A DNA stretch of 64,000 nucleotides from the human T2T-CHM13v2.0 reference genome, Homo sapiens. Shown here piece after piece: positions 19,354 through 21,791 of the stretch. A program made the translations under genes and the position numbers. The notes beneath the pieces were generated by a model. That model was not told the DNA's origin, did not search any database, and was given only the letters and a program-made list of their open reading frames with translations. The number at the start of each line of letters is the position of its first letter. Within the stretch, counting starts at the first letter, position 1. The stretch lies in assembly GCF_009914755.1 (NCBI RefSeq), contig NC_060935.1. One strand, 5' to 3'.

Positions 19354-19756
19354 TTTGTATTTAGTAGAGATGGGGTTTCACCATGTTGGCCAGGATGATC
19401 TCGATCTCTTGATCTTGTGATCTGCCCACCTCAGCCTCCCAAAGTGCTGGGATTATAGGTATAAGCCACCGCGCCCGGCCTAGTTTGTGAAATCTAGAAG
19501 TTCTCCCACCAGAAAATGCAGGTATGTTTTGGTAAGTGAGACGGGGGAAAAAATAATGACCTAAAACTTCTCAAATTCTCACCAGTTACATTGTTGTTAG
19601 ACAGTAGAAACTAGGATATAAAATACAAATAAAAATTTAGCCTCCATTTTTAACTCAGGTGCTTTTACTGGTGGGGGAAGAGACAATGGCAGTTCCAGCA
19701 CTTTTGGAAAAACATACAGTACAAAGGGTAATCCACACATCTTTTTATTGGCAAAA
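19354..19756 (-). repeat. Inverted local duplication of 21067-21465 (includes Alu left arm at 19354-19480)
   Basis: Reverse complement aligns end to end with 21067-21465; I count 4 substitutions in ~180 bp of the unique part and one 4-bp indel. Confidence 0.95.
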
Positions 19757-19833
19757 ATGACATATACATATATACATTATTGTTATATATATATACACAC
19801 ACATTATTGCTATATATATATATATATATATAT
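19757..19833. repeat. (TA)n microsatellite with reiterated cattattg(c/t)tatatatata
   Basis: Motif at 19331, ~19775 and ~19802, bracketing the inverted insert. Confidence 0.85.
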
Positions 19834-21245
19834 CTCACCAAGGTTAAAATATACTGCTGTATTCTTATTCTTGTTTTACACAACCTTACTTTTTAAAATA
19901 ATTAAGAGAAGAAGAGACAAATATAAGTAATTAAGAGAAAGAGAGACAAAATATAAATAACACAGATTTTTCTTGGCTACCTATTTACAATTTCTACCAC
20001 TCTTCATTTCCTGCTGTAGGTGTAACTTATTGTCTAGTGTCCATGTCTTTGATTTGGAGAGCATTCTTTATTACTGTAGGGCAGGTATAGCAGTGTTGTC
20101 TCGTGGCTTTCTTTCTTCTTTTTTTCTTCTGGGAATGTGGTAACATGGTTTTGAGTTTTGAAAGGTAATTTGACAGATGTAGTATAGTTGTTACAAGATT
20201 TTTTTTTGTTTTCAGCAAATGAAACGTCATTCTGCTTCCCTCTAGCCACTTTTTTTTCCATTGAGAAGTCAGTTAATCATATTTACTTTCCTGTACTGAT
20301 GTTTGTTTTTTTCTCATTACTTTTAAGACTTTTGTTTTTGTCTTTGGTTTTCAATACTTGGGCTATGTTGTGTCTAATTACATATCTCTTTGTAGTTATC
20401 TTTTTTGGGATTCATTGAGATTTTAAAATCTTATATTAATATTTTTAACTCAAATTTGAGAAGTTTTAGGTCACTATTTTTTCCCCTATTTCGCTTACCA
20501 AAACACGCCTGCATTTTCTGGCAGGAGAACGTCTAGATTTCACAAGCAAACCTGCCCTGGCAAAGCCCATTCTTGCCAAATGAGCTGAGTGGTGGGGACT
20601 GGGAACAATGCTAGACAAGAAATCTATAGAATTCCATTGTTCTAACTAAAATGGTTAGATTTTTTAATAAACAAATGCTTTTCAATGTATTGTCTGCTTT
20701 CCAGAGACCTAATCATTGTTTGTGAGAATTTTATCCTGTTTTACACTTATTTTTGGGGAAAAGATGTATTTATCTCTTTTTGCAATCAAATCCAGAAGGC
20801 AGAGGCTTTTCTCTTATTTTTATTTTTTAAATGTCTCTCTCTACATCTTACATAATTATACACAGATCACATTTTTTACATTATAATAAGAATAAAAAGC
20901 AGATATTTCCTAAACATGATTTTTATTTCATTTTGAACATTATTTCCATAATTATTCCCTACCTTTTAATTTGCACCTTCTATTATGTCTCAGTAATTCA
21001 TTTTTAAAAACATATTTTAAACATATTGACTTATTCTCATATGTGGTGATAGTTATGTAGACTAACTTTTGCCAATAAAAAGATATGTGGATTATCCTTT
21101 GTACTGTATGTTTTTCCAAAAGTGCTGGAACTGCCATTGTCTCTTCCCCCGCCAGTAAAAGCACCTGAGTTAAAAATGGAGACTAAATTTTTATTTGTAT
21201 TTTATATCCTAGTTTCTACTGTCTAACAACAATGTAACTGGTGAG

Positions 21246-21334
21246 AATTTGAGAAGTTTTAGGTCATTATTTTTTCCCCTGTCTCACCAAAACACGCCTG
21301 CATTTTCTGGCGGGAGAACTTCTAGATTTCACAA
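21246..21334 (+). repeat. Direct copy of 20453-20545
   Basis: aatttgagaagttttaggtca(t/c)tattttttcccct...accaaaacacgcctgcattttctggc(g/a)ggagaac(t/g)tctagatttcacaa in both. Confidence 0.95.
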
Positions 21335-21791
21335 ACTAGGCCAGGCACGGTGGCTTACGCCTGTAATCCGAGCACTTTGGGAGGCTGAGGTGGGCAGATC
21401 ACAAGATCAAGAGATCGAGATCATCCTGGCCAACATGGTGAAACCCCATCTCTACTAAATTCAAAATTTAGCTGGGCGTGGTGGCACGTTCATGTAGTCC
21501 CAGCTACTTGGGAGGCTGAGGCAGTAGAATAGTTTGAACCCGGGAGGTGGAGGTTGCAGTGAGCCGAGATCGTGCCTCCGCACTCCAGCCTCGGTGAAAA
21601 AGCGAGACAACATCTCAAAAAATAAAAATAAAAATAAAACATAAAAAATAAATAAAGTAAGCTAACTAATAGCAAGAAAACTATCCAAAAATGGATAAGA
21701 ACAGGACTGAGAAAGGTATCTATGACCTTCTTGGACTAGACAACTGTCAGGATACAAGATAAGGCTTTTGTAACTTATTCCATTATGGTAT
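21331..21791 (+). repeat. Direct copy of 24380-24852 (AluSc 21339-~21650 plus ~140 bp of unique 3' flank)
   Basis: Same 5' flank acaaactagg, same private Alu variant gatcacaagatcaagag, same non-Alu flank ctaatagcaagaaaact...ggactgagaaaggtatc...ttattccattat; 9 mismatches in ~140 bp of flank. Confidence 0.95.

What the first reader, a model, noticed from the sequence alone, without database searches (positions are those of the whole stretch)
19354..21465. Second, apparently younger event: 400-bp inverted copy of the chimeric junction inserted into a (TA)n tract
Seen: 19354-19756 is the reverse complement of 21067-21465 and spans both junctions of the chimera (unique to L1 copy to Alu), so it cannot predate them. 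It differs by only ~2% in the unique part (4/~180) versus ~6-7% for the first duplication. It retains the cttacc found in the 20.5-kb donor that the 21.29-kb copy lost by a 4-bp deletion, which orders the events. It sits in a TA microsatellite with cattattg(c/t)tatatatata repeated on both sides, and the host L1M appears to continue in the same orientation. Established: (TA)n tracts extrude cruciforms and are break-prone. Inference: the same ~2-kb locus was repaired by local copying at least twice.
Basis: partly seen in the sequence, partly recalled or inferred. Interest (0 to 1): 0.78.

Follow-up and report, generated by a model that had tools for sequence, protein, structure and literature searches.

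The report
Old local inverted DNA copy-paste scar
A 403-base piece of non-coding human DNA sits in flipped orientation 1.3 kb from its source, likely left by a copying slip during DNA repair or replication millions of years ago; it is a clean but ordinary example of a known, common kind of rearrangement.

Summary
19354-19756 is the reverse complement of 21067-21465 (15 substitutions in 399 sites, one 4-nt gap). It interrupts an old LINE that continues on the same strand. New here: a 23-nt target duplication (22/23, unique in the window) and an 18-nt filler that starts with a 7-nt inverted copy of the target edge. The source is itself a patchwork, copied from 20453-20545 and from an Alu plus flank at 24380-24852. 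Two events are supported: non-CpG divergence is 8/381 against 33/481 (p=0.001), and insert and source share three derived Alu changes that the donor lacks. Against this, the CpG clock alone does not separate the events (0.45 vs 0.48). The cruciform trigger is weak: the TA run at the junction is 6 units and the longest nearby is 11.5. L1 retrotransposition hallmarks and assembly artefact are not supported. No ape sequence was available, so dating is relative: about 0.3-0.45 of the first event's age. Small inverted duplications are the commonest non-retroelement inversion class in humans (median 284 bp). No function is evident.

The parts
18645..19347 (+). Left part of the host old LINE (L1M-like, label recalled), interrupted at 18812-19018 by a younger multi-copy repeat
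   Evidence: Profile hits 18645-18791 and 19036-19347; 18812-19018 multi-copy at 80-82%
19331..19353 (+). Left copy of the 23-nt target duplication, ending in (TA)6 then CA
   Evidence: 22/23 identical to 19775-19797; only 2 of 63,477 window positions give such a repeat, both here
19354..19756 (-). Inverted insert: Alu left monomer up to its middle A-rich linker (19354-19484), 93-nt piece (19485-19577), single-copy piece (19578-19756)
19757..19774 (+). 18-nt junction filler; 19756-19762 is the reverse complement of 19328-19334 (left edge of the target duplication), the rest is TA-like
   Evidence: 0.8% of window 7-mers would match within the 33 nt left of the insert
19775..19797 (+). Right copy of the 23-nt target duplication
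19802..19833 (+). Third copy of the target motif, followed by (TA)11.5, the longest TA run in the window
19925..20489 (+). Right part of the host LINE, collinear with the left part
   Evidence: model 964-1537, E 5e-55
20453..20545 (+). Donor A of the older event (end of the LINE match plus single-copy DNA)
21067..21465 (+). Source of the inverted insert
21246..21334 (+). Older event, piece 1: copy of donor A, with a later 4-nt deletion; 4-nt ACAA overlap with piece 2
21331..21791 (+). Older event, piece 2: copy of the Alu and 139 nt of its 3' flank from donor B; carries only the last 8 nt of the Alu's 5' target repeat
24372..24852 (+). Donor B: original Alu (AluS-like, label recalled) between 16-nt direct repeats (24372-24387 and 24714-24729, 14/16), plus flank

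Best explanation
This is a 403-nt inverted duplicate of DNA 1.3 kb away, likely made by a DNA-templated switch during fork restart or break repair in an ancestral germ line, and likely younger than the patchwork it copied. Shown: the arms, the 23-nt target duplication, the 18-nt filler with a 7-nt inverted copy of the target edge, the unbroken host LINE, and the three-piece source. Inferred path: synthesis stopped at 19353, just after (TA)6; jumped about 1.67 kb ahead onto the opposite strand at the Alu's A-rich linker; copied 403 nt backwards; made a short fold-back and slippage filler; and rejoined the original template 23 nt behind its exit point. Patch repair of a staggered break would leave the same scar and cannot be told apart here. 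Inferred history: the Alu inserted at 24.4 kb; soon after, event 1 placed two direct copies at 21245/21792; later, at roughly 0.3-0.45 of that age, event 2 made the insert; then both arms drifted. No function is proposed.
For: Non-CpG divergence 8/381 (2.1%, CI 0.9-4.1) for the arms vs 33/481 (6.9%, CI 4.8-9.5) for event 1, Fisher p=0.001; age ratio 0.30 (0.13-0.61) from non-CpG sites, 0.44 (0.24-0.76) with CpG added, p=0.004 against a ratio of 1. Insert and source share three states that donor B and most unrelated Alus lack: T at donor position 24405 (21 of 26 paralogues C), T at 24470 (20 of 26 C) and a 3-A linker (0 of 34 linkers) (two substitutions confirmed on strict columns). The 14 arm differences show no unusually long identical tract (longest 97 nt, P=0.28). 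Junction anatomy. No poly(A) and no TTTT/A site in either sense. In a passage read, a switch that rejoins behind its exit point yields a direct repeat plus an inverted repeat (PMC7954356). Short templated fold-back inversions, most under 14 nt, are reported at yeast breaks (PMC11724301).
Against: CpG loss per copy is 0.45 for the arms and 0.48 for event 1, so that clock alone gives no age difference (9 and 17 dinucleotides). Counts are small. The entry junction has at most 1-2 nt of microhomology. The insert ends exactly at an A-rich linker and has a target duplication, both also seen with RNA-templated insertion. No outgroup sequence was available, so the empty site and the order are inferred from one genome. 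Whether the third motif copy at 19802 predates the insert is unresolved.
Confidence: 0.72

Rival explanations
1. One complex event made all the copies, and later gene conversion between the inverted arms reset their similarity.
For: CpG clock equal for both (0.45 vs 0.48). Conversion would also give shared derived states. Multi-template germline insertions of up to five templates are reported (PMC8421209 passages).
Against: All three arm segments are low in non-CpG change (3/177, 0/83, 2/119), so one tract would have to cover nearly all 403 nt and then stop. No recent tract is seen, and the 4-nt gap and nine CpG transitions were not erased. The insert has its own target duplication and filler, 1.9 kb from the event-1 site.
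Confidence: 0.14
2. The insert is a reverse-transcribed fragment of a local transcript, primed at the Alu's internal A-rich linker and placed by L1 machinery or used as an RNA patch.
For: The 3' end on the minus strand falls at the linker, and a 23-nt target duplication is in the size range seen for L1-mediated insertions (examples of 19-20 nt).
Against: No poly(A) (the end has 3 A; longest A run 5), the only polyadenylation-like hexamer is at the 5' end, and the target edge is not TTTT/A, so two of three class 1 TSIP features fail (PMC5110952). Landing 1.3 kb from the source favours a DNA template in cis. No gene is annotated in the window (hub annotation).
Confidence: 0.07
3. A (TA)n cruciform was cut and started the event (the first reader's trigger; compatible with the best explanation, not exclusive of it).
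For: The junction lies right after a TA run; only 8 runs of 10 nt or more exist in the window and 3 are here. Breaks at tracts of 6 or more units are reported on extrachromosomal circles (PMC13645644). The tract may have been longer in the past.
Against: The run is (TA)6 at the junction, where no hairpin is predicted (0.0 kcal/mol), and (TA)11.5 nearby (-3.1 kcal/mol). Chromosomal fragility in the passages read involves 23-34 units in yeast and more than 20 in human cells (PMC11797062). The enrichment in PMC13645644 was absent on linear chromosomes. Two of the three runs are copies of one another through the target duplication.
Confidence: 0.15
4. Assembly artefact or a very recent human polymorphic duplication.
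For: Only one assembly was examined.
Against: The arms differ at 15 sites and a gap, the changes fall on both arms, most are CpG-type, and the insert keeps donor-like states that the source lost. A mis-join or a new copy would be identical to its source.
Confidence: 0.01

Closest known systems
Small inverted duplications in human long-read SV catalogues (PMC12350158, passages)
   Same: Inverted copy of a few hundred bases (277 events, median 284 bp, the commonest class among 733 non-retroelement inversions); short or no junction homology; replicative origin proposed.
   Different: Those segregate in people today. This one has 3.8% diverged arms and is likely fixed and millions of years old; it also copies an older patchwork.
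Four-point template switch in great apes (PMC7954356, passages) and MMBIR templated insertions (PMC8421209, passages)
   Same: Inverted copy of a nearby template; rejoining behind the exit point leaves a direct repeat; multi-template germline events; AT-rich context.
   Different: Those surveys cover short ranges (copied length median 12, max 128 nt; templates within 100 bp). Here 403 nt were copied from about 1.3-1.7 kb away.
Templated sequence insertion polymorphisms, classes 1 and 2 (PMC5110952, passages)
   Same: An inserted patch copied from elsewhere; target duplication as in class 1; extra junction bases as in class 2.
   Different: The template is local, not distant. No poly(A) or TTTT/A site (fails class 1); has a target duplication (unlike class 2).
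Fold-back templated inversions at double-strand breaks (PMC11724301, passages)
   Same: The 7-nt inverted copy of the target edge in the filler.
   Different: A yeast system with induced breaks; it explains the filler only, not the 403-nt patch.

Membership tests
Local inverted duplication (template-switch type) | Insert is an inverted copy of an intact nearby source | tested here: met
Local inverted duplication (template-switch type) | No long homology at junctions, only microhomology or templated filler | tested here: met
   at most 1-2 nt at entry, 1 nt plus an 18-nt filler at exit
Local inverted duplication (template-switch type) | Flanks collinear, that is a gain and not a balanced inversion | tested here: met
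   Host LINE collinear on one strand; direct 23-nt repeat
Local inverted duplication (template-switch type) | Empty ancestral allele in an outgroup or another haplotype | not testable with these tools
   No related genomes are held for this window (header)
L1-mediated insertion / class 1 TSIP | Target-site duplication of 5 nt or more | tested here: met
   23 nt, 22/23
L1-mediated insertion / class 1 TSIP | Poly(A) tail with an upstream polyadenylation signal | tested here: not met
L1-mediated insertion / class 1 TSIP | TTTT/A endonuclease site | tested here: not met
   both senses
Class 2 TSIP | No target duplication; distant template | tested here: not met
Cruciform-forming fragile (TA)n tract | Long perfect tract (about 20 units or more) | tested here: not met
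   6 and 11.5 units vs passages; past length unknown
Repeat-mediated polymorphic inversion | Spacer found in both orientations among haplotypes | tested here: inconclusive
   No matching coordinates in supplements of PMC10150506 (chr11 rows are held) or PMC12350158 (file cut when stored); haplotypes themselves were not examined

The most novel reading that the evidence does not exclude
The 5.5-kb stretch 19.3-24.9 kb is an intrinsic long-term hotspot of local template switching, hit three separate times in primate evolution: the two-piece patchwork, the inverted insert that copied it, and a single-copy quasi-palindrome at 23856-23975. One scar would then have helped seed the next.
Probability: 0.12. 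Interest if true: 0.5.

Novelty: new member of a known kind. Interest (0 to 1): 0.2.

Why it matters
It matters little biologically: no gene is annotated, Rfam finds nothing at 18500-25200, and the class is common. Its value is as a datable fossil of germline repair with unusually legible junctions. If ape genomes confirm stepwise origin, and a genome-wide count shows such scars cluster beyond chance, it would be a test case for heritable local fragility. A rough background (1 comparable inverted duplicate in 62 unrelated loci, 195 kb) suggests that double hits within a few kb will occur by chance many times in a genome.

Tried and rejected
Pairwise flank-to-paralogue alignment was too permissive for AT-rich DNA: left-flank scores sat at shuffle level for most of the 27 right-flank loci, so the profile test replaced it. 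The 4-nt deletion as an ordering argument: rejected on logic. L1 retrotransposition: rejected on hallmarks. Assembly artefact: rejected on arm divergence. Structured RNA: 0 Rfam matches in 6,701 bases. Catalogue look-ups for this locus were blank; these cover only stored supplement text, one file was cut, the full repeat tables of PMC11794170 were evidently not among the 237,000 stored characters, and bioRxiv supplements were not seen. LINC02760 search (3 papers listed; passages of one) gave nothing on this site. No table of species divergences was found in the passages read. Two CG-to-TA double changes in the insert were considered as a sign of single-strand hypermutation; two cases are too few and the context is not TC. 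A larger random-genome background was not obtained, so the base rate rests on 259 kb of held, repeat-centred sequence.

Full report
Observation. Self-comparison gives 19354-19756 as the reverse complement of 21067-21465: 403 columns, 15 substitutions and one 4-nt gap. The non-Alu part has three matches in the 3.1-Gb assembly, all here (that search skips very common words). The retained 4 nt are confirmed in a three-way alignment.

The source is a patchwork. 21246-21334 copies 20453-20545. 21331-21791 copies 24380-24852, an Alu with 139 nt of flank that has only these two places in the assembly. The 24.4-kb Alu lies between 16-nt direct repeats (14/16), while the 21.3-kb copy begins inside that repeat, so 24.4 kb is the original. 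The two pieces overlap by ACAA. The insert spans two of the patchwork's three junctions and so cannot be older than them.

The target. A profile from 24 paralogues, all found with the right flank only (24 of the 27 unrelated loci fetched; three with weak or short matches were left out), places three window pieces in order on one strand either side of the insert. The left hits are weak in bits but absent in reversed controls. The names L1M and AluS are recalled; no repeat library was available. The 23 nt before the insert recur, 22/23, at 19775-19797; only 2 of 63,477 window positions do so, both here. Between insert and repeat lie 18 nt whose start is an inverted 7-mer of the target's left edge (chance about 0.8% within 33 nt, 2.9% within the 139-nt neighbourhood). 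A third copy of the motif with (TA)11.5 follows.

Order of events. Counting everything except single CpG transitions, the arms differ at 8/381 and the event-1 pairs at 33/481 (p=0.001). The age ratio is 0.30 (0.13-0.61), or 0.44 (0.24-0.76) when CpG loss is added. CpG loss alone is 0.45 vs 0.48 and does not separate them; this is the main result against my reading. With 26 unrelated Alus as outgroup, insert and source share two derived substitutions and a shortened linker. Those paralogues were found by similarity to the insert, which biases against this result. Donor and copy Alus share only 1 derived change in 196 strict columns and are as far apart (17/240) as from unrelated Alus (medians 6.9% and 8.0%, n=23), so event 1 came soon after the Alu inserted. 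At 1e-9 per site per year the point ages are about 10 and 34 Myr; at the pedigree rate of 0.4e-9 they are 26 and 86 Myr (rates from passages of 10.1101/036434; arithmetic). The slower figure is too old for an AluS-type element (recalled), so only the ratio should be trusted. By recalled species divergences the insert falls around the great-ape radiation.

Mechanism. Best supported is a local DNA template switch: exit at 19353, entry about 1,668 nt ahead on the other strand, 403 nt copied, short templated filler, re-entry 23 nt behind the exit (distances). Patch repair of a staggered break is equivalent in outcome. L1-type insertion fails on poly(A) and target site. The cruciform trigger is weak on present lengths. 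One event plus conversion needs a single old tract over the whole arm; no recent tract is seen, but only outgroups can exclude it.

Known kinds. Inverted duplications are the commonest class among 733 non-retroelement inversions in 1,019 people, median 284 bp, mostly with 1-15 nt of microhomology (PMC12350158, passages). Template switches with a direct repeat, multi-template germline insertions and fold-back fillers are all described (passages: PMC7954356; PMC8421209; PMC11724301). In held sequence, 1 of 62 unrelated loci (195 kb, 3-kb pieces centred on repeats) has a comparable non-family inverted duplicate (L057). I found no mention of this locus in nine literature searches (only one search was locus-directed) or in the supplement look-ups. 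Unseen or cut supplements could list it. Other papers opened: 10.1101/2021.12.20.472354 (passages), PMC11794170 (abstract and one section), PMC5110952 (passages), PMC8082928 (passages), PMC5203777 and PMC12265027 (passages, not useful), PMC10150506 (supplement searches only).

Verdict. Real, well resolved and likely two-step, but an ordinary member of a known class with no sign of function. The hotspot reading gains a little from a single-copy quasi-palindrome at 23856-23975, the only non-Alu short-spacer inverted repeat in 259 kb scanned, but that was noticed after the fact. Interest 0.2.

Noticed in passing
window 23856-23975: Single-copy quasi-palindrome: 48-nt arms at 85% (core 31/32), 24-nt spacer. 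It is the only non-Alu hit of its kind in 259 kb scanned. Possibly a third local template switch, or a decayed small DNA transposon.
   Followed up: partly
L057 1308-1494 and 2563-2751 (G000:C1 near 29.90 Mb): Another local inverted duplicate, about 189 nt at 89%, 1.07-kb spacer, of an old LINE piece that by eye resembles the part of the LINE hit in this window.
   Followed up: partly
window 19354-19756 (arm columns 233-234 and 296-297): Two CG-to-TA double changes in the insert, both in the same ACGCC context; more than the non-CpG rate would suggest, unexplained.
   Followed up: partly
window 21339-21617 vs 24389-24669: The copied Alu lineage carries more non-CpG changes than the donor (10 vs 4 of 196 strict columns); small numbers, could reflect error-prone copying or chance.
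   Followed up: no
window 44329-44883 and 46786-47387: Direct repeats at 79% from a multi-copy family that also comes in pairs about 2.3-4.3 kb apart elsewhere; likely the two long terminal repeats of an old element. Ordinary.
   Followed up: partly
window 45468-45724: 115-nt near-tandem duplicate at 81%, inside the element above.
   Followed up: no
window 19896-19960: 29-nt tandem duplication (2.2 copies, 86%) inside the host LINE, 60 nt right of the TA tract.
   Followed up: no
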